DNA from: an uncultured Candidatus Saccharibacteria bacterium
Lineage (GTDB): Bacteria > Patescibacteriota > Minisyncoccia > Phycocordibacterales > WO2-35-19
Assembly (NCBI GenBank): GCA_964440955.1
Contig: CAYTTP010000002.1
Coordinates: 18,372 to 82,371, forward strand
Direction of reading: 5' to 3'
DNA: 64,000 bases
Positions within the stretch are counted from its first letter, which is position 1; each line of letters opens with the position of its first letter. The position numbers and the translations under genes were made by a program. The notes below the pieces were generated by a model that worked only from the letters and a program-made list of their open reading frames with translations, was not told where the DNA came from and made no database searches. This document shows, piece by piece, positions 9,789 through 57,736 of this stretch.

Positions 9789-12044
9789 ATGAATAAAAAA
9801 TTATCAACATTATTTTTTGTCGCGATCCTGGCACTGACTTTTGTGCCTAATTTTGCTTTTGCTATAACCGAAGCCGAATGTAAAGCCAAAGGCTCAAACT
9901 ATTTCTTCACGCCAGAACTTAGAATTAGCGAGTCGGAAGTAGTGCCAGCCAACTGTACAGAGAGGACTCAAGAAGTAAGAGATAGGGGGAACCAGGTAAT
10001 GAGTGAAATGCAATCAAACGGCAGCAATCTTTTGGGTGTAATGTTTGAGCCATTGTTCAAAGGCATAGGGCAACTACTCATGACTCTTTCATCACTCGTC
10101 CTCCTTACAGTAGGGAAGCTTTTTGATTTGAGTATTACCTACACGATCATTGATATGGCAAAAAACCTAGGGCCAGACGGTATCGGCAAGGCTATCGAAG
10201 GAGCTTGGGCAACCCTAAGAGATTTGGCCAATATATTTTTTATCTTCATACTTATATATGCCGCCTTTAAGGCAATGTTTGACCTAAATCCAACTAGCAT
10301 AGGTGGCACAGTCAAAAATATAATCATAGTCGCCCTGCTTATAAACTTCAGTCTCTTTTTGTCAAAAGTGGTTATTGATGCTTCCAATGTAGTGGCAATT
10401 GGGTTTTATAAATCAATCAGTGTTCAAGAAACATATAATTTAAATTCGGGAACCATTGACGATGATGGAAATATCCTCCCCCGACCAACTGAAGTGACAG
10501 GTATAACCGGTGGTTATATGAACCTGCTTGGGATGAATGGTTGGTTTTCATCAAAAATCCTTGATACCAATGTCAGAGCCTCTACCGCAATGGCGCTTGG
10601 TGTCATGAGTTCGATATTCATGATTGTGACAGCAGTTGTTTTTGGCATCACCGCTTTTATGTTGATCGCTCGCTACATCATTCTTATATTTTTGCTCGTA
10701 CTCTCTCCGCTTGCTGCTATTTCATATATGATCCCCGGACAAAGCTCGTATTTTGATAAGTGGTGGAAAATGCTTCTAAACCAAGCCCTCTTTGCTCCAG
10801 TTTTCTTTGCTATGACCTGGGTCGTATTTAAAGTGGCCGGACATCCAAAATTTTTGGGCTCACTATCAGACAAAATATCAGGAAAAGTTTTTGTTGAAAC
10901 AATAACAAACGGTGCCGATACTGGGGTCGCTGCCATTGTTTTAAACTTTGTTTTGATCACCGGCTTCTCAGTCGCTGCGCTTATAGTATCAAAGAGTATT
11001 GCCTCAAAGACCGAAGGTTTCAACGCCATCACTGCCGGCGCGGCTGGAGCAGTTTTTGGAGGCAGTGCTCTTGCAATGAGAAATACCGTCGGCAGAGCTT
11101 CGTCACTTGTTAGTGACAAATATAGGGATAGGTTGGAAAAATCCGCCATCGGCAGAAGTACACTTTGGCTTGCCAATAAAGGTAAGGGAGCAAGCTTCGA
11201 TACTCGTGGTATTGACCTAGGTAAAGTACCTGGAGTTGGTGGGTATATCAAAAAAGAAGCTGACATCCTAGGCAAGGCAGGTGGTGCTGGTGGCTTTGCT
11301 AAAGCAGTCAAAACAAAAGCAGAAGCTAAGGAAAAATACGCTAAGGAGGTTTATGGTCAAAGTGAAAATGAAAAAGATGAGATTAAGAAAATCAAAAAAG
11401 ATAAAAATTTGACAGACAAGATAAATCTAGACCGCGAGATTGCAGAAACTAAAACAGCAACCGAAGCAAAAGAAAAGGAAGAGAAGAGAAAGAAATATGC
11501 TGATACAATACTTGGAGAATACAATACTAGATTGGCAGAACTAAATAAAGAGAGAGTAGTTAAACAGAGAGAAGTGAGTGCAGAGAAAGATGAAGACAGA
11601 AAGAAAGTATTAACCACAGAGTTAAGTAATATCTTGGCTAGTATCAACCTTGAAAAAGAGGGGAGAAAAGAAAAGGAGAAGGATATGGAAAATAATGATG
11701 CAACATACAAAGACTTGAAAGAAAAGGCTGATGAAGCTAAAGAGGCCGCCAAAAAAGCAAAGGAACAGAGAAATAAAAAGGAATACGATGATAGTGAATA
11801 TGGCGAGAGATTGAAGGATATAAAGGATAGAGCCAAGAAGCGCCAAGGAATGTATGCAGAAAGATTGAGAAAAATGCCATTTGTTGGTTGGACACAAGGT
11901 AGTGAAGCGGCGGCAAGAAAAGTTGAAGCTCTCACAGAAGAGAAGTCGAAAAGTCAAAAAGCGGCTGACCTTTTAACTGAATTTGCAAAAGATGCCACAC
12001 CTACTCCACCCCCACCGACACCTCCAACCACCCCAACAACATAA
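9789..12044 (+). CDS. TrbL/VirB6-like polytopic membrane protein with a long Lys/Glu-rich coiled-coil tail and a PT-rich C-terminus
   Basis: Signal peptide, then about 6-7 TM helices over some 350 aa, then about 270 aa of KEKE-type low complexity ending PTPPPPTPPTTPTT. It sits next to the VirB4-like gene. Confidence 0.5.
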   Translation: MNKKLSTLFFVAILALTFVPNFAFAITEAECKAKGSNYFFTPELRISESEVVPANCTERTQEVRDRGNQVMSEMQSNGSNLLGVMFEPLFKGIGQLLMTLSSLVLLTVGKLFDLSITYTIIDMAKNLGPDGIGKAIEGAWATLRDLANIFFIFILIYAAFKAMFDLNPTSIGGTVKNIIIVALLINFSLFLSKVVIDASNVVAIGFYKSISVQETYNLNSGTIDDDGNILPRPTEVTGITGGYMNLLGMNGWFSSKILDTNVRASTAMALGVMSSIFMIVTAVVFGITAFMLIARYIILIFLLVLSPLAAISYMIPGQSSYFDKWWKMLLNQALFAPVFFAMTWVVFKVAGHPKFLGSLSDKISGKVFVETITNGADTGVAAIVLNFVLITGFSVAALIVSKSIASKTEGFNAITAGAAGAVFGGSALAMRNTVGRASSLVSDKYRDRLEKSAIGRSTLWLANKGKGASFDTRGIDLGKVPGVGGYIKKEADILGKAGGAGGFAKAVKTKAEAKEKYAKEVYGQSENEKDEIKKIKKDKNLTDKINLDREIAETKTATEAKEKEEKRKKYADTILGEYNTRLAELNKERVVKQREVSAEKDEDRKKVLTTELSNILASINLEKEGRKEKEKDMENNDATYKDLKEKADEAKEAAKKAKEQRNKKEYDDSEYGERLKDIKDRAKKRQGMYAERLRKMPFVGWTQGSEAAARKVEALTEEKSKSQKAADLLTEFAKDATPTPPPPTPPTTPTT

Positions 12045-36320: not shown

Positions 36321-36407
36321 ACCGCACAAAAACAAATAAGAAAAAGGGTTTTTAAGAAAAATACTTGCTTTTTTATATATAATATGATCCCATTTTGGGA
36401 GAGTCCC

Positions 36408-37118
36408 ATGGGGACTGATCTTAGAAAGGACTGTAAAAACGGTATGACCGAACAACAGATGCCGAAGTTTATGGGTGTTCTGGTTGAACACCAAAGAGCC
36501 TTCTTCTCCGACTTTGGGGATGAGGATGCTCAATGGGTAATTCAAAACACCAAGGCTGCAATCGCAGTCTTCGCTCAAGCAGTAAAGAGTCGTGGCGTGA
36601 AGGCGATCGGAGAAATTAAGAACGTTCTCGCAAATCTTAAGAAAATCACGATCAACCCGACGCTCGAAAAGCGCACGGCCGACTGCTTCACCAACACCGA
36701 GCGGTACTACCATCGCGACTCCAATCTGAACACTCTCCTGCCGGAAATCCAACCGGCACAGGAGGCGGTGGAGGTTGCGGTCAATAAGTTGCTGGAGAAC
36801 TCTCGGTTTGTCGGAATGGTGCAGAGCTTGCTCGGCACCACCGACACCGGCACGACAGTTCTCTCCCGCGAAATCATCGCTCGCAAGTACATCTTCTTCC
36901 TTCCGCAGATTGAGCAATTGATCGATCGGCAGGAGTCAGGTGAAAATGTCGGTTTACGAGTAGATGGCTGGGGAAACTTCTTCCTTGTGTTGAACAAGAA
37001 GGGTGGCGTCTCGGTCGTTTGCGTGTGCCGGCGTGGCGGGCGGTGGAGCGTGGGTGTTTACGACCTCGGCAACGTCTACGTTTGGGGTGCCGGGCGCCAC
37101 TTCTTTTCCTGCAACTAG
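36408..37118 (+). CDS. Hypothetical protein encoded in a GC-rich island (about 55-58% GC)
   Basis: Ribosome-binding site GGGAGAG 7 nt before the ATG at 36408; TATAAT at 36378. It competes with an antisense 210-aa ORF (36285..36917, minus strand), so the strand call is tentative. Confidence 0.35.
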   Translation: MGTDLRKDCKNGMTEQQMPKFMGVLVEHQRAFFSDFGDEDAQWVIQNTKAAIAVFAQAVKSRGVKAIGEIKNVLANLKKITINPTLEKRTADCFTNTERYYHRDSNLNTLLPEIQPAQEAVEVAVNKLLENSRFVGMVQSLLGTTDTGTTVLSREIIARKYIFFLPQIEQLIDRQESGENVGLRVDGWGNFFLVLNKKGGVSVVCVCRRGGRWSVGVYDLGNVYVWGAGRHFFSCN

Positions 37119-37234: not shown

Positions 37235-38167
37235 TCACCACTCCATACTATCAACTACTAAACCATTGTTGTCATACAAGGTTAGCTTTTCATTGCGGTC
37301 GCGCCAGAGGGGCCCAAATTTGTTGAGATAAATATAATATTGGTTGCCTGGAAAGTCGGTATCACTAAAATGATTGGCCACACAGGCTTTGTAGGTTGCT
37401 TGGACTTCCATATACGCTTTGCATGACGACGGTGTGCTGTCCGGCAAGTCGCGTAAATAACTATTTTTTACTGTGGTACATCGAGGAATACGCTCAAGCA
37501 GCTCAAGACAATCGTCATTGCGCTCGTTTATGCTGGAGAAGGTAGGCAAGTCGGTGTCGGTGACGAGCGGGCACTGTGTCGGTAGGGTTGGCCAAAATTC
37601 AGCGTTTTCTTCAAAGTAGCCGGTGCACTTGTTGGTACGGAAGGAAATACCAATTGGCGAAAAGCCTTTGATAATGTAGGCACTGTCTTGATATTGAAGT
37701 ACTACGTCTTGATAGGTTTTGCTGAAAGGGAAGGGAAGTAGGGAGGCGCCACCTATGACTACTGTATTACCAGTTTTTTCGCTTCGTAAGTACCAACCGG
37801 TGATTTTGATAGTCTGGTTTTTTTGGAGGTAGGTTGAGAGGCGAATATATTCATGTCCCGGGTCGCTATTGTTTAAATTGTTGACCATACTCATTGTCAC
37901 AAGGTCATTGTAGGGGGAGGTATTGCTACTCGAATTATTTTTAGCGATGTTTTGCTCTAGTTTTTTTATTTGCTGCTCAACTTCTTTGATGTTTTCAGCG
38001 GCAGTTTTGTTTGGGGTGTATCCAAGCGATGATTGGTCATATTGATTTGGCGACCCTATTGATGAGTTGCTCTCATTTTTGATCGCATTTTGCTTGTATG
38101 GGCCATAAGCAAGACCTAAAAGTACAAAGAGGACTAAAAGTATAACGATTGGTTCTTTGTCTTTCAT
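37235..38167 (-). CDS. Hypothetical secreted or membrane-anchored protein
   Basis: N-terminal TM helix, coiled-coil segment, Cys-containing C-terminal domain. Confidence 0.4.
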   Translation of the reverse strand: MKDKEPIVILLVLFVLLGLAYGPYKQNAIKNESNSSIGSPNQYDQSSLGYTPNKTAAENIKEVEQQIKKLEQNIAKNNSSSNTSPYNDLVTMSMVNNLNNSDPGHEYIRLSTYLQKNQTIKITGWYLRSEKTGNTVVIGGASLLPFPFSKTYQDVVLQYQDSAYIIKGFSPIGISFRTNKCTGYFEENAEFWPTLPTQCPLVTDTDLPTFSSINERNDDCLELLERIPRCTTVKNSYLRDLPDSTPSSCKAYMEVQATYKACVANHFSDTDFPGNQYYIYLNKFGPLWRDRNEKLTLYDNNGLVVDSMEW

Positions 38168-41473: not shown

Positions 41474-42103
41474 CTAATGGTTGTGCTGTTCCTGACGGAA
41501 GAGATGTCTTTCCTCAAGTGTTGTTCCTTTGGCTAGGCGAAGGAGTTCGCCGTTGCCGAAGTGGAAAATATTCAGCACTTCTCTCCACCTAATGTTGTAA
41601 TAGGCGCCGTATAGAGCCTTGCCCATGTCCCCGTGGGTTACAAGCAAGATCTTGTGGTTCGGCCCTTGGTGTAGGTGTTCGAGGAGTTGGATGACCCGTC
41701 GCGCTCTTTCCCAGAGTTGAAAGAATGTTTCTACCCCAGGACCAGATAGGAAATACGTGATCGTGCCGGTCTTGATGGTGTATGGTGCGCAAAGCTTCTC
41801 GATCTCACTGACTTTTTCCCCGGCCATGTACCCAAAGTCACGCTCGATGAGCGAGTGTAGGATTATCGGATCTCCGTTGTTTACACCCAACCAATCGCAG
41901 ATTGTGCTTGTGGTCGAGCGTGCTCTGACTAGTGGCGAAGTGTACACTGCATCAAACTGAATTCCAGCATCCTCGATCTTTTGAGCGAGCCTTTCAGCTT
42001 GTTGCTCACCAAGATCGGTCAGATCCTCATCGCGATGGCCGTTTAGAATACCTTCTTCGTTGTCCTTGTCTTGTCCGTGTCGGACTACGTAGATTTCTAA
42101 CAA
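41474..42103 (-). CDS. Histidine phosphatase (phosphoglycerate mutase superfamily); comparatively GC-rich gene
   Basis: RHG motif (VVRHGQDKDN), SPLVRARST, and a late conserved histidine in VTHG. Confidence 0.75.
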   Translation of the reverse strand: MLEIYVVRHGQDKDNEEGILNGHRDEDLTDLGEQQAERLAQKIEDAGIQFDAVYTSPLVRARSTTSTICDWLGVNNGDPIILHSLIERDFGYMAGEKVSEIEKLCAPYTIKTGTITYFLSGPGVETFFQLWERARRVIQLLEHLHQGPNHKILLVTHGDMGKALYGAYYNIRWREVLNIFHFGNGELLRLAKGTTLEERHLFRQEQHNH

Positions 42104-42202: not shown

Positions 42203-42274
42203 GCTCCCGTCGTTCAATGGATAGGACGTATCCTTGCGGAGGATATGATGTAGGTTCGATTCCTGCCGGGAGCA
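42203..42274 (+). tRNA. tRNA-Arg; my anticodon-loop parse gives GCG
   Basis: Acceptor GCTCCCG/CGGGAGC; its D-loop and T-arm closely match the two other Arg tRNAs in the window; anticodon loop TTGCGGA. Confidence 0.65.
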
Positions 42275-42503
42275 CAAAAGTACGAAATAATTTTGTGCTC
42301 TCGGGCAAGCAAACTGCTTTGCTTGCGAACAGGAATCGAACGGCGGAATATGTTTTTTGTAGCAACAAAAAACTATGAGCCGGTGCCCAGACAAATTTTG
42401 CGTGGTTAGCAAAATTTAGTCGAGGGAGATACTTCTACCGGGAGCACCACGAGATTTAGTATAATTTTATTTTGGAAAAAATTACTAAACAATATAAATA
42501 ATT

Positions 42504-44187: not shown

Positions 44188-45249
44188 TTATTGCGCTTTT
44201 TTTATATTTACAACATTGGCTCTATTGAAAACCTGACTGTCCATATATGTATAATAGTAAATATCGATTTCTACAAATACCTTATCTAAATTTTTAAATC
44301 CCAATTTTTTAATATTCTCTGTATTTTCTATTCCAAACCAAACCATTCTGCTATCACTACTAAGATAGGGTAATTGTTTTAGAGAATCATTAGTTAAATA
44401 CCGTATTGAGTATTCTGGTCCAAACCCTTCTTCCTTTAGGTCCCTGATGTATAAGGTTCCCGTTAGTTTGGCTGTTCCTTTAAATTCTATTCCTACCTTT
44501 GCTTCAGAAATTGGGTAATAAATTTTGTCTACTACCATAGCTCCAACTTTTTGACCTATCTCGATATTTTCATGACTAAAGATATTTGGAGTTAATCCTA
44601 GTGATTCTGTAGCGTCATGTTGGATGTTTATATAAAGACCCCCATTTACTGCATCTCTCGTACCAATACTCAAAATTAAAGAATTATTATCTTTTTGATA
44701 AAGAAAATCTTGGTAAAAACCAGGCTCTCTAGGTTTTGCTGTCAATATCCAATTATTATCAGCTAACCAATTTTTGATTAGGGTAACAACGTTGCTATGT
44801 TCTCTGCGGGCAATTTCTACATCATTTTTATATTCAAGGTCTTCAGAATTAAATGATTTGCTGAATAGCATTACAATATCGTTTGGTTTTGGCAGTCTTT
44901 CTGTTTCTATGGTTTGTATAAATTTCCAACCGCTATAACTCCCATCAAACTTCCATTGAATCAGTTTTTCGATTTCAGATATGTCGCTATTTATTTTATC
45001 AAAATTATTAAGGGTCAATTCAATTTCTTTTTCGTTCACGGTCGATTTCATAAAGTCACCATCTTTCTTGGGGTAGGATGGCATAAGATGATCTAATATC
45101 TTGTCACCAAAAAAAAGAATGATTCCTGTGATGGTCAAAATAACTCCAATCAAAATTATCAATTTTTTTGATTTTTTAGGAGGTTGGGGTTGTAGAGTGG
45201 CTTCACCGAACTGTGTGGTTTTAATATTTAGGAGATTATTGTCGTCCAT
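44188..45249 (-). CDS. Hypothetical membrane-anchored protein
   Basis: N-terminal TM helix followed by a 300-aa domain. Confidence 0.4.
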   Translation of the reverse strand: MDDNNLLNIKTTQFGEATLQPQPPKKSKKLIILIGVILTITGIILFFGDKILDHLMPSYPKKDGDFMKSTVNEKEIELTLNNFDKINSDISEIEKLIQWKFDGSYSGWKFIQTIETERLPKPNDIVMLFSKSFNSEDLEYKNDVEIARREHSNVVTLIKNWLADNNWILTAKPREPGFYQDFLYQKDNNSLILSIGTRDAVNGGLYINIQHDATESLGLTPNIFSHENIEIGQKVGAMVVDKIYYPISEAKVGIEFKGTAKLTGTLYIRDLKEEGFGPEYSIRYLTNDSLKQLPYLSSDSRMVWFGIENTENIKKLGFKNLDKVFVEIDIYYYTYMDSQVFNRANVVNIKKAQ

Positions 45250-47737: not shown

Positions 47738-50700
47738 ATGAAAGAAGAGGAAAAAAACATAGCGGCCAAGGAAGAAGAAGTCCTGAAATTTTGGAAGGAG
47801 AATAAAATCTTTGAAAAATCACTCACCAAATCCTCTCCCAAGGGTAACTTCGTTTTTTATGAAGGTCCACCGACCGCTAACGCGAAACCTGCTCTTCACC
47901 ACCTTGAAGCTCGGGCCTTTAAAGACGTGATCCCTCGCTATAAAACTATGAGAGGGTTCCATGTTCCCAGAAAAGGTGGTTGGGATACGCATGGCCTTCC
48001 GGTAGAACTTCAAATAGAAAAGAAGCTTGGTCTTACTTCAAAAAAAGACATAGAGCAATATGGTGTTGAAGCTTTCAATCGCGCCTGCAAAGAGAGCGTT
48101 TTTGAATATATAGGTGAATGGGAAAAATTTACTGATCGCATTGCATATTGGGTTGATAAAAAAAATGCTTACTACACCTTCAACTCTTCTTTTATGGAGA
48201 CCGAATGGAATATTATAAAAAAAGTGTATGAAGACGATCTTCTCTACAAAGATTATCGGGTGGTGCCGTGGTGTACTCGCTGTGGGACAGCGCTCTCCTC
48301 TCATGAATTGGCTCAAGGCTACGAAGATGTAAAAGATCTTTCTGTTTATGTGAAATTTAAGGTTAAACAAGGTCAGAAGATAAAAGATTCTGTTGTTGAA
48401 GACAATACATATATATTGGCATGGACGACAACCCCATGGACTCTTCCGGGTAATGTCGGATTAGCAGTGGGGGAGGAGATTGAATATTTAAAATTAAAAA
48501 TTACCAACCAAGGAGGCGGAATTGGAAATTCTTCAGAAATCTTAATAATTGCCAAGGAGAGGGTGTCAGTAATAACTGCAGAGTATTCTGTCCTCGATGA
48601 AATAAAAGGAAAAGACTTGATTGGTCTTGAATATGAGCCACTTTACCCGTATTTGAAAGACAAGTTTGAAAGTAAAGATCCAGAAAGTTTTGAAAGAGCT
48701 TATAAGGTGTACGGGGCGGATTTTGTAACTACTACCGATGGTACAGGTATTGTTCATACTGCCGTTATGTATGGTCAGGAAGATTTTGAACTTGGCACAA
48801 AGGTGGGGCTTCCAAAATTTCATCTTGTTTCTGACGATGGCAAGTTTGTTAGCGATACTGGTTTTTTGGAAGGCAGGTTTGTCAAAGAAAAAGACGAAAA
48901 CGGAAAGCCTACACTCGCAGTTGATATCATTGATGATTTAAAGAAAAGAAACCTGTTTCTCAATCAAGAAAATATAAAACATACTTACCCTCACTGTTGG
49001 AGGTGTAAGACTCCTCTTATATATTACGCGCGCGACTCTTGGTATATTCGTATGTCAAAGCTTCGCGATGAACTCCAAAAAGAAAATGAAAAAATAAACT
49101 GGGTACCCTCTCATATTCGTGCCGGCCGTTTTGGGGAATGGCTTCGGGAAGTGAAAGATTGGGCAATTTCTCGTGAAAGATATTGGGGTACGCCATTGCC
49201 AGTGTGGCTATCAAAAAATGGAGAAATGAAAGTAATTGGAAGTGTCGAGGAACTAAAAAAATACACTAAAAAATCTGGCAATCAATATTTCGTCATGCGT
49301 CACGGCGAAGCGAGAAACAATGCACTTAACATACCAGACAGGGAGGGTGACCCTGAAAATCATTTGACCGAAAAGGGGGAGAAAGAAGTTTTGGAAACCT
49401 GTGATGATTTGAAGACTAAAAAGATAGACCTAATCATCACCTCGCCGTTTTTGAGGACGAGAGAGACAGTGGCGATCATAAAGAGAGAGCTCGGCCTTAA
49501 GGAAGAAAATATAGTTGAAGATACGAGAATATTTGAAATACAGCCAAACGAAAGTTATTTGGAGGTACGAAAGCGGATGGGCGAATTTATTTTTGATATC
49601 GAGTCAAGATACCAAAACAAAAATATTTTGATTGTAAGTCATGGTTTGCCAATCTGGTCGCTTTTGGAAGTGGTAAATATGCGGAAGGTTGATGATGGTG
49701 ACACTCCTTACGATTTGAAAACAGGCGAAGTGAAAGGATTTTCGTTTTCTCTATTTCCAAAAAATGAAAAATACGAGCTTGATTTGCATAAGCCATATAT
49801 TGATGAAATTGAACTTTTTGACGAGGGGGGCGAAAAGCTAACTCGCACAAAGGAGGTGATGGATGTTTGGTTTGACTCTGGTGCCATGCCTTTTGCTCAA
49901 GATGGTTTAACTCTACAAGATAAAGTCTTGTATCCAGCCGACTATATTTCTGAAGCGATCGATCAGACTCGTGGTTGGTTTTATACTCTCCATGCGATTG
50001 GAGTATTGATGGGGCGAGGACACGCTTATAAAAACGTTGTCTGCTTAGGGCATATTCTTGATGCAGAGGGTAAAAAAATGTCCAAGTCGGTCGGTAATAT
50101 CATAGATCCAGTTGTCGCGATAAACACGTATGGCGCTGACGCTTTGCGTATGTGGATGTATACAGTCAACCAACCGGGGGATTCAAAAAACTTTGACCCG
50201 AAAACGGTTGATGAACTGATAAAAAAGATTTTCAATCCTATTGAAAATGTCATTTCTTTTTATGAAATGTACGCTGACTCTTCTATACAACCCCATGATC
50301 GAAGCAGTGATTTGTTAGACAAATGGATAATAGCAGTCTTCAAAAAAATGTCCGCTCAGGGTACCGAATATTTGGATAACTTTAAAATTTTTGAAGCAGC
50401 GAGATTGGTGCGCGACTTTGTCAATGATTTTTCTACATGGTACATACGTCGTTCGAGAGAAAGGTTTAAATCAGAAGATTTGACTGATAAAAACAACGCG
50501 CTTAGCACTACCGCTTTTGTTTTGCGCGAATTGTCGAAATATATGGCGCCATTCATGCCGTTTTTTGCTGAGAGTATTTATTTGAAATTCAGAGCAAATG
50601 AAGAGCCGGAGAGTGTGCATTTGACCGGATGGCCTTTTGAAGATGATGGAATATTGAAAAATATTTTCGATTCGTTCAAGCATGAAAAAAATATCATTGA

Positions 50701-51193
50701 AGACATGGAAGAAGTGCGACGCATAGTGTCGCTCGCTCTTGAAAAGCGTATGGCTGCAAATATAAAAGTAAGGCAACCGTTGACTAAATTAAAAATAAAA
50801 AATTCAAGATTGAATAATTCGGACCCAGCTTTTTTGGATTTGATCAAGGATGAAATAAATATCAAAGAAGTTGTTTTTGATGAAAGTATTGCCGAAGATG
50901 TAGAGCTTGACCAAACCATCACTCCGGAGTTGAAAAAGGAGGGGGAGGTGCGGGAGATTATCAGGATGATACAAGACTTGCGTAAAGAAAATGAACTAAC
51001 ACCTGACCAAAAAATAACTCTAAGGGTCGAAGCAGGAAAAGAAAAAATAGAGCTGTTTAGAGAGTTTGAAAGCACAATTTCCAAACCAACCAACATTTCG
51101 CATTTTGAGTTTATTGATAGAGAAGGTGGGGCAGATGTCGCAAGGGAAGTTGATTTGGATAGACTGGTTTTGTCCATAATTCATACTTCTTAA
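47738..51193 (+). CDS. ileS: Isoleucyl-tRNA synthetase carrying an in-frame inserted histidine-phosphatase (PGAM-family) domain
   Basis: HIGH-like motif (PPTANAKPALHH), KMSKS, and WCTRCGT zinc motif. Between GTPLPVW (about aa 484) and VWFDSG (about aa 714) lies a roughly 150-aa module with RHG (FVMRHGEARNN), SPFLRTRET and IVSHG motifs. Confidence 0.9.
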   Translation: MKEEEKNIAAKEEEVLKFWKENKIFEKSLTKSSPKGNFVFYEGPPTANAKPALHHLEARAFKDVIPRYKTMRGFHVPRKGGWDTHGLPVELQIEKKLGLTSKKDIEQYGVEAFNRACKESVFEYIGEWEKFTDRIAYWVDKKNAYYTFNSSFMETEWNIIKKVYEDDLLYKDYRVVPWCTRCGTALSSHELAQGYEDVKDLSVYVKFKVKQGQKIKDSVVEDNTYILAWTTTPWTLPGNVGLAVGEEIEYLKLKITNQGGGIGNSSEILIIAKERVSVITAEYSVLDEIKGKDLIGLEYEPLYPYLKDKFESKDPESFERAYKVYGADFVTTTDGTGIVHTAVMYGQEDFELGTKVGLPKFHLVSDDGKFVSDTGFLEGRFVKEKDENGKPTLAVDIIDDLKKRNLFLNQENIKHTYPHCWRCKTPLIYYARDSWYIRMSKLRDELQKENEKINWVPSHIRAGRFGEWLREVKDWAISRERYWGTPLPVWLSKNGEMKVIGSVEELKKYTKKSGNQYFVMRHGEARNNALNIPDREGDPENHLTEKGEKEVLETCDDLKTKKIDLIITSPFLRTRETVAIIKRELGLKEENIVEDTRIFEIQPNESYLEVRKRMGEFIFDIESRYQNKNILIVSHGLPIWSLLEVVNMRKVDDGDTPYDLKTGEVKGFSFSLFPKNEKYELDLHKPYIDEIELFDEGGEKLTRTKEVMDVWFDSGAMPFAQDGLTLQDKVLYPADYISEAIDQTRGWFYTLHAIGVLMGRGHAYKNVVCLGHILDAEGKKMSKSVGNIIDPVVAINTYGADALRMWMYTVNQPGDSKNFDPKTVDELIKKIFNPIENVISFYEMYADSSIQPHDRSSDLLDKWIIAVFKKMSAQGTEYLDNFKIFEAARLVRDFVNDFSTWYIRRSRERFKSEDLTDKNNALSTTAFVLRELSKYMAPFMPFFAESIYLKFRANEEPESVHLTGWPFEDDGILKNIFDSFKHEKNIIEDMEEVRRIVSLALEKRMAANIKVRQPLTKLKIKNSRLNNSDPAFLDLIKDEINIKEVVFDESIAEDVELDQTITPELKKEGEVREIIRMIQDLRKENELTPDQKITLRVEAGKEKIELFREFESTISKPTNISHFEFIDREGGADVAREVDLDRLVLSIIHTS

Positions 51194-53778: not shown

Positions 53779-55086
53779 ATGGAAAAAGACAATAAAATGG
53801 AAAAGATTGTTTCGCTTGCCAAAAGGCGAGGATTTGTATTTCAAGGAAGTGAGATATATGGTGGTTTGGCAGGTACTTGGGATTATGGCCCATACGGTGC
53901 GGAGTTGGCTCACAACATAAAAGAATTATGGTGGAGGCATTTTGTGACTGATCGGGAGGATGTTTTTGGTATATCTACTCCAACTATTATGCCCGAAGGA
54001 GTATGGAGATCATCAGGACACCTCTCTGGTTTTACTGACCCTATGGTTGAATGCAAAAAATGTCATCATCGATTTAGAGCCGATCATTTGAAAGATAAAA
54101 ACAAATGTCCTGATTGTGGTGGAGAACTCGGTGAAGAGAAAGCTTTCAATTTAATGTTTCCGCTTAGTATGGGTAGTAGTGCTGACAGTGTTGCTTATCT
54201 TCGAGGCGAGGTGGCGCCTGGTATGTTTGTTAATTTTAAAAATATTTTGGATACTATCCATCCTAATTTACCTTTTGGCCTTGCTCAAATAGGCAGGGCT
54301 TATCGCAATGAAATAGCACCGAGAGATTTTCTTTTTAGGGTTCGTGAATTTGATTTGATGGAGATTGAGTTTTTTCTTCGCGAGAAAGATTGGGAAAAAT
54401 ATTTTGAGATGTGGCGGGAAGAAATGTGGAAATGGATAGAAAAAGTCGGTATAAACAAAGATCTTGTCCACGAACTTGAGGTTGCTAAGGAAGACCGGGC
54501 TCATTACTCAAAAAGAACTATTGATTTTGAATTTGATTTTCCTTTTGGCAGGAAAGAATTGTACGGTCTTGCTTATCGGACTGATTATGACTTAAAGGCT
54601 CATAGCGATGGTTCGGGCGTTGACCTATCTTATTATGACGAAGAAACAAAAGAGAGATTTGTCCCGCATGTTGTTGAGCCGTCGATGGGTCATGGCAGGA
54701 CACTGCTTGCAGTGCTTGCCTCTGCCTATACCGAAGATGAAATGAATGGGGAAGTGAGGACATATTTAAAACTTAAACCAAGTATTGCACCGGTGAAAGT
54801 AGCGGTATTTCCTCTTCTTAAGAACAAGCCAGAGTTGGTGACAAAGGCGAGAGAGGTATTTATGACACTCAAAAAGGAATTTGGCGCGATCGAATTTGAT
54901 GATAACGGTAATATTGGCAAGCGGTACAGGAGGCAAGACGAAATTGGTACGCCATTTTGTGTGACAGTCGATTTTGAGACGATTGAAAAAAATGAAGGAG
55001 TTACGGTTCGCGACCGTGACAGTGGTAGCCAGGAGAGAATAAAAGAGGAGGATTTGGTCGCTTACATAAAAAATAAAATACAATAA
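53779..55086 (+). CDS. glyQS: Glycyl-tRNA synthetase (alpha2 type, GlyQS)
   Basis: Class II motifs; RGFVFQGSEIYGG N-terminal signature; zinc-binding CxxC...CxxC. Confidence 0.85.
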   Translation: MEKDNKMEKIVSLAKRRGFVFQGSEIYGGLAGTWDYGPYGAELAHNIKELWWRHFVTDREDVFGISTPTIMPEGVWRSSGHLSGFTDPMVECKKCHHRFRADHLKDKNKCPDCGGELGEEKAFNLMFPLSMGSSADSVAYLRGEVAPGMFVNFKNILDTIHPNLPFGLAQIGRAYRNEIAPRDFLFRVREFDLMEIEFFLREKDWEKYFEMWREEMWKWIEKVGINKDLVHELEVAKEDRAHYSKRTIDFEFDFPFGRKELYGLAYRTDYDLKAHSDGSGVDLSYYDEETKERFVPHVVEPSMGHGRTLLAVLASAYTEDEMNGEVRTYLKLKPSIAPVKVAVFPLLKNKPELVTKAREVFMTLKKEFGAIEFDDNGNIGKRYRRQDEIGTPFCVTVDFETIEKNEGVTVRDRDSGSQERIKEEDLVAYIKNKIQ

Positions 55087-56287: not shown

Positions 56288-57736
56288 ATGAAAGATAAGA
56301 CTTTTTATATTACAACGACTATTCCTTATGTGAATGCCGATCCGCACATGGGTTTTGCTCTCGAGCTTGTGCAGTCGGACGCAATCGCTCGGTATCACCG
56401 ACTCAAAGGTGAGGAGGTGTTTTTTAATACCGGTACTGACGAGCATGGACAAAAAATTTGGGAAGCAAGCCAAAAAGAAGGGCAGGAGGTACAGGCTTAT
56501 GTCGACCGTTATGCAGCCAATTATTTTAACCTGACCAAAACCCTCAATCTTTCTAATGATAATTTTATTCGTACTACCGACGAGGCTCATATAAAAGCAG
56601 CCCAAGAAATGTGGCGCATTTGCGAAGCGAAGGGGGATATATATAAAAAGAAGTATAGGGGGTTGTATTGTGTCGGGTGTGAAAAATTTCTAATCGAGCG
56701 CGATTTGGTAGATGGAAAGTGTATTTTGCACCCAACCAAGGAGCCAGAAGTGGTGGAGGAAGAAAATTACTTTTTCAAACTGACCAACTACCGAGACCAA
56801 CTTCTTGACTACCTTTCAAACGAAAACTCTATTGCTCCAGATTGGCGTCGTAAGGAGGCAATTGAATATGTGAAAGAGGGTATGGAAGATTTCTCGATTT
56901 CTCGAAGTAAAGAAAGATTTTCGTGGGGAGTGCCGGTACCGTGTGATGAGAGTCAGGTGATGTATGTGTGGTTTGACGCGCTTGTAAATTATATTTCAAC
57001 TCTTGGGTGGCCACACGAGAAAGAAAAATTTGAAAAATTTTGGCAAGGCGGTTTTCACATGCAAACCGCTGGCAAAGATATGGTCAAGTTTCAGTCAGTG
57101 ATGTGGCAGGGGATGCTCCTCTCGGCCGGGCTTACACCAACAAGCACAGTGGTTTATCACGGGTTCATCACGGCCGAAGGTGGGGTCCGTATGTCGAAGT
57201 CATTGGGCAATGGGGTAAATCCGGTTGACATAGCCAGTGAATATGGAACCGATGCTTTACGTTACTTTTTATTGCGCGAAGTCTCAGTTTTTGAAGACAG
57301 TCCATTTACAATTGAGAGGTTTAAAGAAGCGTATAACGCCCATTTGGCTAATGGGTTGGGAAATTTGGTTTCGAGAGTTATGACTATGGCGGTTAAAAAT
57401 AATATAAAAATAAGAGAGTCAGATTCTGATCTGTTTAATTTTTTCAAACCTGGCTATATATCAGAATTTGTTGAAAAATTTGAGATAAATAAAGCAATGG
57501 ATTTGATTTGGGGAAAAATTGGCAAGGCAGATTCATTTATACAAACCAAGGAACCTTTTAAGAAGATAAAGAGTGACAAAGAATCTGCAACAAAAGATAT
57601 ACAGGAATTGCTCTGCGAATTAGCGGAAATATCAGTTTGTCTTAGGCCGTTTTTGCCACAAACTGCTAAAAAAATTGAAACATTAGTGAGAGAAAATAAA
57701 ATGTCAGAAGTTTCTCTATTTCCAAGAAAAGATTGA
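56288..57736 (+). CDS. metG: Methionyl-tRNA synthetase
   Basis: P.VNADPHMG (HIGH-like), KMSKS (RMSKSLGN), zinc knuckle CVGCEKF...CILHP. Confidence 0.9.
   Translation: MKDKTFYITTTIPYVNADPHMGFALELVQSDAIARYHRLKGEEVFFNTGTDEHGQKIWEASQKEGQEVQAYVDRYAANYFNLTKTLNLSNDNFIRTTDEAHIKAAQEMWRICEAKGDIYKKKYRGLYCVGCEKFLIERDLVDGKCILHPTKEPEVVEEENYFFKLTNYRDQLLDYLSNENSIAPDWRRKEAIEYVKEGMEDFSISRSKERFSWGVPVPCDESQVMYVWFDALVNYISTLGWPHEKEKFEKFWQGGFHMQTAGKDMVKFQSVMWQGMLLSAGLTPTSTVVYHGFITAEGGVRMSKSLGNGVNPVDIASEYGTDALRYFLLREVSVFEDSPFTIERFKEAYNAHLANGLGNLVSRVMTMAVKNNIKIRESDSDLFNFFKPGYISEFVEKFEINKAMDLIWGKIGKADSFIQTKEPFKKIKSDKESATKDIQELLCELAEISVCLRPFLPQTAKKIETLVRENKMSEVSLFPRKD

What the first reader, a model, noticed from the sequence alone, without database searches (positions are those of the whole stretch)
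49190..49880. Isoleucyl-tRNA synthetase carries a complete histidine-phosphatase (PGAM-family) domain inserted in-frame within the catalytic core
Between the conserved IleRS segments RYWGTPLPVW...VIGSVEEL and DLHKPYIDEI...DVWFDSG, a span that is normally about 60-70 aa, there are about 215 aa. The extra roughly 150 aa carry the full signature set of the histidine phosphatase superfamily. These are RHG (YFVMRHGEARNN), the SP..R..T stretch (ITSPFLRTRETV) and the distal catalytic His (ILIVSHGLPIW).

The insertion is cleanly in-frame and has no intein hallmarks. A standalone histidine phosphatase gene also exists at 41474-42103, but it is only moderately similar. A phosphatase domain grafted into an aminoacyl-tRNA synthetase would be a novel architecture. 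It might act on a nucleotide or tRNA-end phosphate, or be a moonlighting or regulatory module.
Basis: partly seen in the sequence, partly recalled or inferred. Interest (0 to 1): 0.7.

Follow-up and report, generated by a model that had tools for sequence, protein, structure and literature searches.

The report
Phosphatase domain nested inside isoleucyl-tRNA synthetase
The isoleucyl-tRNA synthetase of this candidate-phyla-radiation bacterium carries an intact histidine-phosphatase domain in a surface loop. The same arrangement occurs in at least 80 related species and recurs in valyl-tRNA synthetases, yet I found no paper that describes it, and its substrate is unknown.

Summary
The 1151-aa ileS ORF (47738-51193, +) contains a His_Phos_1 domain (Pfam E=1e-21). 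It replaces a roughly 7-residue loop of the CP3 subdomain, at aa 511-680 (core 513-671).

The domain folds confidently (pLDDT 93.6). Its closest solved relatives are PhoE and PspA. The catalytic set R521, H522, R573, E600 and H635 is kept.

It is not an artefact and not private to this genome:
- All 120 closest full-length IleRS clusters carry it.
- All 80 best GTDB species loci (Parcubacteria/Paceibacteria lineages) carry it with intact motifs.

The window copy is a minority short form that lacks the roughly 35-aa cap.

- ValRS of Gracilibacteria/Peregrinibacteria carry 1-4 copies, mostly at the homologous CP3 site.
- Some IleRS carry copies at two or three sites.
- Single cases of ArgRS and TsaC fusions exist.
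- Among the 150 closest relatives of the domain, every long protein is a tRNA-pathway, adenylate-forming enzyme.

Seven literature searches found no description. The substrate is unknown. My best guess is a tethered phosphomonoesterase acting at the synthetase, on a tRNA 3'-end phosphate or a nucleotide product. I rate it a new variant of a known kind, with interest about 0.7.

The parts
47738..51193 (+). ileS: type-2 isoleucyl-tRNA synthetase, 1151 aa, with a nested phosphatase domain
   Evidence: Continuous ORF. TIGR00392 scores 859 bits against a 621-bit cut-off. Pfam finds tRNA-synt_1, Anticodon_1 and DUF5915. Matches PDB 8C8W and 1ILE at E about 1e-213.
47891..47902 (+). Class I signature motif in the non-canonical form ALHH (aa 52-55), a variant of A/GXHH
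   Evidence: Motif position. Family counts are GIHH, ALHH and V[LF]HT. A/GXHH is described in IleRS2 as conferring mupirocin hyper-resistance (PMC10485003).
47738..49267 (+). N-terminal Rossmann half, CP core, CP1 editing domain (WTTTPWT at aa 229, GTGIVH at aa 335), CP2, the DWAISRERYWG linker (aa 474-484) and the first part of CP3
   Evidence: Domain nomenclature from PMC7191050 and PMC7955072.
49268..49777 (+). Inserted His_Phos_1 (branch 1 histidine phosphatase) domain, aa 511-680 (core 513-671). It is the cap-less short form.
   Evidence: Pfam E=1e-21. Boundaries from the PDB alignment and alignment A3. AF2 pLDDT is 93.6 and pTM 0.90. Foldseek finds PhoE 1H2E (TMq 0.76, rmsd 1.8 A) and PspA 4IJ5/6.
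49298..49303 (+). R521-H522 of the RHG motif, the predicted phosphate-binding Arg and nucleophilic His
   Evidence: Invariant in 120/120 sequences and 28/28. Aligns to the RHG of PhoE.
49454..49456 (+). R573, the second phosphate-binding Arg (SPFLRTRET)
   Evidence: Invariant.
49535..49537 (+). E600, the predicted general acid (R-I-F-E). It aligns to the 'derlrEi' Glu of PhoE.
   Evidence: Invariant in A3. Alignment to 1EBB.
49640..49642 (+). H635, the distal catalytic His (VSHG)
   Evidence: Invariant.
49778..51193 (+). Rest of CP3 (ELDLHKPYIDE...), second Rossmann half with DVWFDSG (aa 709) and KMSKS (aa 780-784, window 50075-50089), anticodon-binding domain and type-2 C-terminal domains

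Best explanation
**Shown**
- This is the cell's housekeeping type-2 IleRS.
- A small PhoE/PspA-like histidine-phosphatase domain has been nested in the variable CP3 subdomain, replacing a short loop. In most relatives the ancestral zinc knuckle is gone as well.
- The module has been inherited vertically through a large Patescibacteria (Parcubacteria/Paceibacteria) clade.
- It keeps all five catalytic residues and folds as an independent alpha/beta domain joined by conserved linkers.

**Inferred**
- It is an active phosphomonoesterase that works while tethered to the synthetase, on a phosphate-bearing species linked to aminoacylation.
- My preferred substrate is a blocked tRNA acceptor end, that is a 2'/3'-terminal or cyclic-derived phosphate that must be removed before CCA repair and charging.
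- The second candidate is a nucleotide or pyrophosphate product of the adenylation reaction.

**How sure**
- Real, conserved and catalytically competent domain: about 0.9.
- Substrate linked to aminoacylation or tRNA: about 0.45.
- Substrate specifically a tRNA-end phosphate: about 0.25.
For: **Architecture and fold**
-.

**Purifying selection**
- R521, H522, R573 and H635 are invariant in 120/120 sequences, and E600 in 28/28.
- This holds although the insert averages only 41% pairwise identity, against 71-73% for the catalytic halves.

**Retention**
- All 120 nearest full-length clusters carry the domain.
- All 80 best GTDB species loci carry it with intact motifs.

**Functional coupling to synthetases**
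- 72 of 121 ValRS related to P0241 (Gracilibacteria/Peregrinibacteria) carry 1-4 copies. Of those domains, 74 of 88 lie in the homologous WGHxIP..DTWFSS (CP3) segment.
- Some IleRS carry copies at 2-3 different sites.
- One ArgRS C-terminal fusion and one TsaC/YrdC fusion exist.
- Of the 150 best representatives, 86 have IleRS/ValRS flanks, one is the ArgRS fusion and one the TsaC fusion. Every protein of 300 aa or more is one of these; no other host protein was seen.

**Position**
- CP3 starts right after the DWxxSRxRYWG linker, which lines the tRNA-CCA/reveromycin pocket (PMC7955072).

**Open active site**
- The cap-less short form resembles SixA, which acts on a macromolecule.
Against: - No enzymatic data exist.
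- The nearest characterised relatives (PhoE, PspA, CobC, GpgP, RosC) act on small molecules.
- To my knowledge, no histidine-phosphatase-superfamily enzyme is known to act on RNA ends or on PPi.
- Inserted domains are on average slightly acidic (net charge -3), which is not what a general RNA binder looks like.
- Copy number and insertion site vary. This argues against a precise geometric coupling to the active site.
- The ArgRS and TsaC fusions are single observations. The TsaC fusion was not found again.
Confidence: 0.4

Rival explanations
1. Hitch-hiking metabolic enzyme. The domain is an ordinary small-molecule phosphatase (PhoE/PspA/GpmB-like, for example a phosphoserine or sugar-phosphate phosphatase). 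In these streamlined genomes it has been fused into a large, constitutively expressed, insertion-tolerant protein. It has no mechanistic link to aminoacylation.
For: - The closest solved and curated relatives are all small-molecule phosphatases.
- Stand-alone paralogues of the same subfamily exist in CPR genomes. P0243 lies between secY and adk, and another copy is in this window.
- The insert evolves faster than the synthetase.
- Variable site and copy number suggest no strict geometry.
- Other unrelated domains are also found in these synthetases: GNAT, HD, an IS200-like domain, DUF559 and HU.
Against: - Every protein of 300 aa or more among the 150 nearest relatives is a class I aaRS or TsaC. 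Random hitch-hiking would give varied hosts.
- The domain was inserted independently at the homologous CP3 loop of IleRS and ValRS.
- Tandem arrays of up to four intact copies are hard to explain by co-expression alone.
- The linker motifs are conserved: KKSGNKYF upstream and FxPLPHNENYELD downstream.
Confidence: 0.25
2. Product clearance. The domain hydrolyses a product of the adenylation or transfer reaction, either PPi or AMP. This pulls amino-acid activation forward or feeds nucleotide salvage.
For: All four partner enzymes (IleRS, ValRS, ArgRS, TsaC) catalyse ATP -> acyl-AMP + PPi and later release AMP. The TsaC reaction itself does not use tRNA as a substrate. One IleRS relative (P0180) also carries a C-terminal HD domain weakly similar to YfbR/HDDC2-type nucleotidases.
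Against: - I know of no branch-1 histidine phosphatase that acts as a pyrophosphatase.
- PPi and AMP diffuse freely, so tethering gives little advantage.
- The benefit would apply to all 20 synthetases, yet the MetRS and the class II aaRS in this window have no insert.
- The TsaC fusion is a singleton.
Confidence: 0.15
3. Structural or regulatory pseudo-phosphatase. The domain replaces the lost CP3 zinc knuckle as a scaffold, or binds a phosphorylated metabolite or a phosphate on tRNA without turnover. It would tune IleRS rather than catalyse anything.
For: The four zinc-ligand cysteines of CP3 are lost in 111/120 insert-bearing IleRS. The Arg and His residues would also be conserved if they served only to bind phosphate. 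The linkers are modelled confidently, which suggests a rigid attachment.
Against: - The general-acid Glu, which binding does not need, is invariant in 28/28 sequences of alignment A3, and the matching column of the 120-sequence alignment A2 holds Glu in at least 90%.
- The nucleophilic His is never replaced in the 120 IleRS clusters of alignment A2 or the 80 GTDB species loci.
- Extra copies in tandem arrays are also intact.
- Six relatives keep both the zinc knuckle and the insert.
Confidence: 0.1
4. Selfish or mobile insertion. The domain spreads by inserting into permissive loops of essential genes, where imprecise deletion is lethal. This would resemble non-splicing intein-like passengers.
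For: Insertions recur at several sites and in several synthetases. Arrays are multi-copy. Some relatives also carry IS200-like or DUF559 endonuclease-like insertions in the same proteins. Weak A-rich direct repeats flank the insert in the window.
Against: - There is no nuclease, Hint or recombinase activity in the domain.
- Composition is the same as the rest of the gene.
- The catalytic residues are under strict conservation.
- The pattern is vertical, with conserved junctions across at least 80 species.
- The flanking repeats are short, imperfect and of the kind expected by chance.
Confidence: 0.05

Closest known systems
Bacterial type-2 IleRS (Priestia megaterium IleRS2, PDB 8C8U-8C9D; Thermus thermophilus IleRS, PDB 1ILE)
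   Same: Same enzyme family and domain order: Rossmann halves, CP core, CP1 editing domain, CP2, CP3, anticodon-binding domain and type-2 C-terminal domains. E is about 1e-213. The non-canonical A/GXHH signature motif is also described for IleRS2 (PMC10485003).
   Different: Those enzymes have a roughly 7-residue loop where this protein has a 160-170-aa phosphatase domain. T. thermophilus has a zinc knuckle in CP3 that is lost here.
PhoE (Geobacillus stearothermophilus broad-specificity phosphatase, PDB 1EBB/1H2E) and PspA (Hydrogenobacter phosphoserine phosphatase, PDB 4IJ5)
   Same: Best sequence-profile and structural matches to the insert: 3.6e-18, TMq 0.76 and rmsd 1.8 A. The R-H-R-E-H catalytic set is the same.
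   Different: Those are free-standing proteins of about 205 aa with a cap subdomain. The window copy is embedded and cap-less. Identity is about 20%, and the NCBIfam equivalog cut-offs are far from met.
SixA (phosphohistidine phosphatase, PDB 1UJB)
   Same: A minimal histidine phosphatase of about 160 aa without a cap. Similar in size and openness to the short form here.
   Different: TIGR00249 scores 45 bits against a cut-off of 74.5, so it is not a member. Most relatives of the insert (the long form) do have a cap.
NCBIfam NF040702 'ileS_w_GNAT' (IleRS containing an N-acetyltransferase domain)
   Same: A curated precedent for an IleRS with an additional enzyme domain. One relative (P0314) carries both a His_Phos_1 and a GNAT domain.
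   Different: The accessory domain is different. The window protein scores 310 bits against a cut-off of 1999 and has no GNAT domain.
Bifunctional RNase H/acid phosphatase (Rv2228c type, NCBIfam NF005567)
   Same: Precedent for a branch-1 histidine-phosphatase domain fused to a nucleic-acid enzyme. Weak hit of 46 bits.
   Different: That fusion is terminal, not nested. The partner is different, and the score is far below the 326-bit cut-off.
HD-domain phosphatase of the E. coli CCA-adding enzyme (recalled from memory, not tested here)
   Same: A phosphohydrolase tethered to a tRNA 3'-end enzyme and proposed to repair 2',3'-cyclic or phosphorylated tRNA ends. This is the functional analogy behind my preferred mechanism.
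   Different: Unrelated fold and chemistry (metal-dependent HD against phosphohistidine intermediate), and a different host enzyme. This is a lead only.

Membership tests
Isoleucyl-tRNA synthetase, type 2 (IleRS2) | Whole-protein match to the ileS equivalog model above the curated cut-off | tested here: met
   TIGR00392 scores 859.2 bits against a 621.4-bit cut-off.
Isoleucyl-tRNA synthetase, type 2 (IleRS2) | Class I signature motifs HIGH (or the IleRS2-specific A/GXHH variant) and KMSKS | tested here: met
   ALHH at aa 52-55 and KMSKS at aa 780-784. The A/GXHH variant is documented in PMC10485003.
Isoleucyl-tRNA synthetase, type 2 (IleRS2) | CP1 editing domain with the Thr-rich WTTTPWT peptide and the GTGxVH...D motif | tested here: met
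   WTTTPWT at aa 229 and GTGIVH at aa 335, followed by MYGQED.
Isoleucyl-tRNA synthetase, type 2 (IleRS2) | Type-2 C-terminal organisation (no C-terminal zinc-binding domain; ARD2/ARD3 = DUF5915 region) | tested here: met
   Pfam Anticodon_1 at aa 861-1016 and DUF5915 at aa 1055-1129. Best PDB hits are IleRS2 structures.
Isoleucyl-tRNA synthetase, type 2 (IleRS2) | Aminoacylation of tRNA-Ile and editing of Val | not testable with these tools
   Needs enzymology.
Histidine phosphatase superfamily, branch 1 (Pfam PF00300) | Sequence match above the gathering threshold | tested here: met
   74.8 bits (80.9 for the segment alone) against a 21.7-bit cut-off.
Histidine phosphatase superfamily, branch 1 (Pfam PF00300) | Catalytic set: RHG Arg + nucleophilic His, second Arg, general-acid Glu, distal His | tested here: met
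   R521, H522, R573, E600 and H635 are invariant across relatives. They align to the PhoE residues.
Histidine phosphatase superfamily, branch 1 (Pfam PF00300) | Alpha/beta fold with a central mixed sheet | tested here: met
   AF2 pLDDT is 93.6. Foldseek gives probability 1.00 to PspA, PhoE, GpgP, SixA and dPGMs.
Histidine phosphatase superfamily, branch 1 (Pfam PF00300) | Phosphatase or mutase activity through a phosphohistidine intermediate | not testable with these tools
   Needs biochemistry.
Cofactor-dependent phosphoglycerate mutase (dPGM) | Equivalog-level match, size of about 230-250 aa with substrate-binding insert and C-terminal tail | tested here: not met
   The best dPGM model (NF038349) scores 61 bits against a 225-bit cut-off. 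The domain is 160-170 aa without a cap.
Phosphoserine phosphatase PspA / PhoE-like broad-specificity phosphatases | Equivalog-level match and a cap subdomain shaping the substrate pocket | tested here: not met
   NF045917 scores 49 bits against a 350-bit cut-off. The cap is deleted in the window copy, although it is present in the long form of relatives.
SixA phosphohistidine phosphatase | Match above the TIGR00249 cut-off | tested here: not met
   45.2 bits against a 74.5-bit cut-off.
Intein | Hint fold, N-terminal Cys/Ser, C-terminal His-Asn followed by Cys/Ser/Thr | tested here: not met
   No Hint or intein Pfam hit. The fold is a histidine phosphatase. The downstream 'PHN' of relatives is followed by Glu and belongs to IleRS CP3.
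ileS_w_GNAT (NCBIfam NF040702) | IleRS with an N-acetyltransferase domain, score above cut-off | tested here: not met
   309.6 bits against a 1999-bit cut-off. No GNAT Pfam hit.

The most novel reading that the evidence does not exclude
Candidate-phyla-radiation bacteria have repeatedly wired a dedicated phosphatase module into class Ia synthetases. IleRS carries it in Paceibacteria and ValRS in Gracilibacteria/Peregrinibacteria, with occasional ArgRS and TsaC fusions. The reason would be that it performs a so far unrecognised step of tRNA charging. Examples would be removing a terminal 2'/3'-phosphate from damaged or processed tRNA at the synthetase itself, or reversing an inhibitory phosphorylation. 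That would amount to a new built-in repair or quality-control activity of aminoacyl-tRNA synthetases.
Probability: 0.3. Interest if true: 0.85.

Novelty: new variant of a known kind. Interest (0 to 1): 0.7.

Why it matters
- Aminoacyl-tRNA synthetases are among the best-studied enzymes, and their accessory domains usually signal added functions such as editing, tRNA binding or signalling.
- A catalytically intact phosphatase nested in IleRS is conserved across at least 80 uncultivated species and was acquired independently by ValRS at the homologous loop. That pattern points to a selective advantage that current models of tRNA charging do not account for.
- If the substrate is tRNA-linked, this would be a new repair or quality-control step. 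If it is a nucleotide or PPi, it would show how minimal episymbiotic cells drive or couple amino-acid activation.
- The case is directly testable with one recombinant protein and a His-to-Ala mutant.
- It also flags CP3 as a hot spot that tolerates whole-domain insertions, which is useful for synthetase engineering.
- Separately, the ALHH motif predicts intrinsic mupirocin hyper-resistance in this clade.

Tried and rejected
- **Assembly chimera:** rejected. The identical protein is on 3 contigs in NCBI and Logan. All 120 nearest clusters and all 80 best GTDB species loci share the architecture.
- **Intein:** rejected.
- **Recent duplication of the neighbouring stand-alone gene 41474-42103(-):** rejected. 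Identity is 31% over 72 aa.
- **Apparent stand-alone closest relative P0023:** it is a frameshift fragment of a broken ileS on a long-read contig. Short hits on long contigs are therefore not evidence for free-standing copies. P0243 is a true stand-alone gene.
- **Alignment-based scan of genome contigs:** failed for lack of a conserved 7-10-column stretch. The single-protein scan worked.
- **Metagenome scan for further TsaC-phosphatase fusions:** found only phosphatase-domain matches. That fusion remains a singleton.
- **afdb50 fold library:** unavailable.
- **Model coordinates:** The distance and orientation of the phosphatase pocket relative to the synthetic site, editing site and tRNA could not be measured.
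- **Flanking direct repeats (49212/49758 and 49148/49727):** short, imperfect and A-rich. I treat them as chance.
- **Net charge as a proxy for RNA binding:** inconclusive to negative.
- **NJ tree of domains:** star-like. It supports several independent recruitments but no resolved history.
- **Literature:** seven searches and two targeted paper reads found no description.
Full report
**1. The observation**

The + strand ORF 47738-51193 is uninterrupted and encodes 1151 aa. It is an isoleucyl-tRNA synthetase.
- NCBIfam ileS TIGR00392 scores 859 bits against a 621-bit cut-off. The match is split in two around aa 519.
- Pfam finds tRNA-synt_1, Anticodon_1 and the type-2 C-terminal DUF5915.
- Between the two tRNA-synt_1 stretches Pfam finds His_Phos_1 (PF00300) at E=9.6e-21.
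- The quoted motifs are there: RHG at aa 521, SPFLRTRET at aa 569 and VSHG at aa 633.
- Base composition across the insert does not differ from the rest of the gene.

**2. Exact boundaries and location**

Alignment to solved IleRS2 structures pairs query aa 510 with residue 478 of P. megaterium IleRS2 (8C8W) and residue 481 of T. thermophilus IleRS (1ILE). Query aa 681 pairs with residues 486 and 488 respectively. About 170 aa (window 49268-49777) therefore replace a roughly 7-residue loop.

The family alignment narrows the foreign part to aa 513-671. The downstream FxPLPHNENYELDLHK belongs to IleRS itself.

Yeast IleRS residue ~492 aligns to query aa 510. CP3 spans residues 459-526 in yeast, so the site lies in the CP3 subdomain. 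CP3 begins immediately after the ARDWNVSRNRYWG linker that lines the tRNA-CCA/reveromycin pocket (PMC7955072). CP3 has three different topologies in solved IleRSs, so it is structurally variable (PMC7191050). Brkic et al. call the same region CP2.

In T. thermophilus two Cys pairs forming a zinc knuckle flank the site. All four Cys are lost in 111 of 120 insert-bearing relatives, including the window protein. Six relatives keep them.

**3. The domain**

A model of aa 506-685, built with 28 sequences, has pLDDT 93.6 and pTM 0.90.
- Foldseek against the PDB returns only branch-1 histidine phosphatases. The best are PspA 4IJ5/6 and PhoE 1H2E (TMq 0.76, rmsd 1.8 A). GpgP, RosC, dPGMs and SixA follow.
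- A sequence profile finds PhoE at 3.6e-18, then PspA and CobC.
- No NCBIfam equivalog reaches its cut-off: dPGM 61 of 225 bits, PspA 49 of 350 and SixA 45 of 74.5. The domain therefore belongs to the superfamily but to no characterised subfamily.
- In the full-length model (pLDDT 88, pTM 0.81) the insert and its linkers are confident.
- R521, H522, R573 and H635 are invariant in 120/120 full-length relatives. With the general-acid E600 they are invariant in 28/28.
- The insert averages only 41% pairwise identity, against 71-73% for the catalytic halves. This indicates selection on catalysis, not only on the fold.

The window copy is a short form, as are 20 of the 120 sequences. About 35 aa forming the cap between 'EIQ' and 'PNES' are deleted.

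**4. The synthetase part looks functional**
- KMSKS and the editing motifs WTTTPWT and GTGIVH...D are present.
- The class I signature is ALHH. This is the A/GXHH variant described for IleRS2 as compatible with catalysis and as conferring mupirocin hyper-resistance (PMC10485003).
- Relatives carry GIHH, ALHH or V[LF]HT.

**5. Distribution**
- A search with the junction region found dozens of Patescibacteria fragments with the PF00133+PF00300 architecture.
- A full-length search found the identical protein in NCBI and Logan on 3 contigs.
- All 119 other best clusters (54-64% identity, 1064-1304 aa) carry PF00300. Source names include Zambryskibacteria, Parcubacteria, Minisyncoccia and Paceibacterota.
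- In GTDB species representatives, the 80 best loci all cover the whole query. They come from Parcubacteria, Nomura-, Zambryski- and Taylorbacteria, Minisyncoccia and Paceibacterota. All carry the domain with RH[GAST], SxxxR and the distal His. Nine are short form.

This rules out a chimeric assembly and shows vertical inheritance with retention.

The local gene order ileS-recO-surface protein-class II aaRS is conserved in a relative. The stand-alone phosphatase at 41474-42103 (minus strand) is only 31% identical over 72 aa.

**6. The pattern is wider than the finding**

A profile-free scan of 1.84 billion representatives with the insert gave 2033 hits. I classified the best 150.

| Class | Count |
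|---|---|
| IleRS- or ValRS-flanked | 86 |
| ArgRS with a C-terminal copy (P0357) | 1 |
| TsaC/YrdC (t6A pathway) with a C-terminal copy (P0259) | 1 |
| Short proteins without synthetase flanks (stand-alone genes or fragments) | 62 |

No other host protein was seen.

Some IleRS carry copies at two or three different sites (P0296, P0376). P0314 adds a GNAT and an IS200-like domain, and P0180 adds a C-terminal HD domain.

A search with the ValRS P0241 showed that 72 of 121 related ValRS carry one to four intact copies. Their source names are Gracilibacteria and Peregrinibacteria, and several sit on contigs of 0.7-1.4 Mb. Of 88 domains, 74 lie between WGHxIP and DTWFSS, the segment homologous to IleRS CP3.

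Further points on these cases:
- Domains within one ValRS array cluster together in a star-like tree, apart from the IleRS inserts. This suggests independent recruitment plus local duplication.
- The ArgRS fusion sits directly upstream of recO, where ileS sits in the window.
- The ArgRS and TsaC cases are single observations. The TsaC fusion was not found again.
- P0243 is a real stand-alone relative, lying between secY and adk.
- P0023 is only a frameshift fragment of ileS.

**7. Mechanism**

*Shown:*
- An independently folding, catalytically complete phosphatase is rigidly nested in CP3 of a functional IleRS and is retained across a large clade.
- The same subfamily associates repeatedly and almost exclusively with adenylate-forming enzymes of tRNA metabolism.

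*Inferred:* it is active and acts on something connected with aminoacylation.

I rank the candidates as follows.
- **(a) A blocked tRNA acceptor end.**
  - For: CP3 starts next to the CCA pocket in both IleRS and ValRS. The cap-less form has an open, SixA-like site. There is an analogy, recalled from memory, to the HD phosphatase of the CCA-adding enzyme.
  - Against: the domains are slightly acidic, and no RNA-end phosphatase is known in this superfamily.
- **(b) An unrelated small-molecule phosphatase hitch-hiking on an insertion-tolerant essential protein.**
  - For: the nearest relatives act on small molecules, the insert evolves fast, and geometry is variable.
  - Against: the exclusive choice of synthetase hosts, the homologous site in two enzymes, and tandem arrays.
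- **(c) Clearance of PPi or AMP.**
  - For: all partners make acyl-AMP + PPi.
  - Against: there is no precedent for the chemistry, and the MetRS and the class II aaRS in this window lack the insert.
- **(d) Structural or sensor pseudo-enzyme.**
  - Against: the invariant general-acid Glu and nucleophilic His.
- **(e) Selfish insertion.**
  - Against: there is no mobility machinery, and the flanking repeats look like chance.

**8. Comparison with what is known, and novelty**

The host is an ordinary IleRS2 and the guest is an ordinary superfamily member. The combination is what is new.
- Seven full-text searches found nothing.
- Targeted reading of the IleRS2 papers found no mention. One of them is a 2026 preprint that annotated domain architectures of 96,219 IleRS sequences.
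- NCBIfam has a curated 'ileS_w_GNAT' exception model but nothing for this architecture.
- The sequences have been public since the 2015 groundwater genomes, so the architecture is unreported rather than unseen.

I rate it a new variant of a known kind.

**9. Limits**
- There is no enzymology.
The orientation of the phosphatase pocket relative to the tRNA is therefore unknown.
- Whole-genome presence or absence of ppa, the cca HD domain, serB and a second ileS could not be examined.
- The counts come from capped lists: the best 120, 150 or 80 entries.

Noticed in passing
window 47891-47902 (aa 52-55 of IleRS): The class I HIGH signature reads ALHH, an A/GXHH variant reported to give IleRS2 mupirocin hyper-resistance (PMC10485003). 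Relatives carry GIHH, ALHH and also V[LF]HT, which has only one His and which I did not see mentioned in the passages of that paper returned by my term search.
   Followed up: partly
window 41474-42103 (-): A stand-alone 209-aa His_Phos_1 gene lies next to tRNA-Arg(GCG) at 42203-42275. It is only 31% identical to the insert over 72 aa. In a rough tree it groups nearer the ValRS-embedded domains.
   Followed up: partly
window 49190-49240 and 49800-49860 (CP3 flanks of the insert): The four zinc-ligand cysteines that flank this site in T. thermophilus IleRS are absent here and in 111/120 insert-bearing relatives. Six relatives keep 2+2 Cys together with the insert.
   Followed up: yes
P0241, P0380 and other ValRS: ValRS of Gracilibacteria/Peregrinibacteria carry 1-4 tandem, catalytically intact His_Phos_1 domains, mostly at the site homologous to IleRS CP3. 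Some also carry DUF559 (PF04480) or HU (PF00216) domains.
   Followed up: partly
P0314, P0296, P0376, P0180: Other IleRS carry several insertions. P0314 has an IS200-like Y1 transposase domain in the editing domain, plus His_Phos_1 and GNAT. P0296 has three His_Phos_1 copies at three sites, and P0376 has two at two sites. P0180 has a C-terminal HD domain weakly similar to HDDC2/YfbR-type nucleotidases.
   Followed up: partly
L086/L087 4001-6070: An ArgRS with a C-terminal His_Phos_1 domain sits directly upstream of recO, followed by a surface protein and a class II aaRS. That is the slot ileS occupies in the window. In L001, argS lies upstream of ileS. This suggests a rearrangement that kept the phosphatase domain but not the IleRS body.
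   Followed up: no
L085 977-2140: A TsaC/YrdC (threonylcarbamoyl-AMP synthase) is fused to a His_Phos_1 domain through an 'ESGNKYF' linker, like the 'KKSGNKYF' of IleRS. It is seen on a single 3.7-kb contig and was not found again.
   Followed up: partly
L001 937-5848: In a relative, ileS is broken into four ORFs on a long-read contig. An IS605 OrfB-like gene and a lone cas1 lie between argS and ileS. This could be assembly frameshifts or a pseudogene.
   Followed up: no
window 49212-49225 / 49758-49771 and 49148-49172 / 49727-49751: Two short, imperfect direct repeats bracket the insert (14 nt at 86% and 25 nt at 72%). They are A-rich and probably due to chance.
   Followed up: partly
window 56288-57736 (+) and 53779-55086 (+): A compact 482-aa MetRS and a 435-aa class II aaRS lie in the same neighbourhood and have no inserted domains. 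The phosphatase is therefore not a general feature of this genome's synthetases.
   Followed up: yes
window 9789-12044 (+), 44188-45249 (-), 37235-38167 (-), 36384-37118 (+): Several sizeable ORFs (751, 353, 310 and 244 aa) have no Pfam match at the thresholds used, 1e-5 for the 751-aa ORF and 1e-4 for the others.
   Followed up: no
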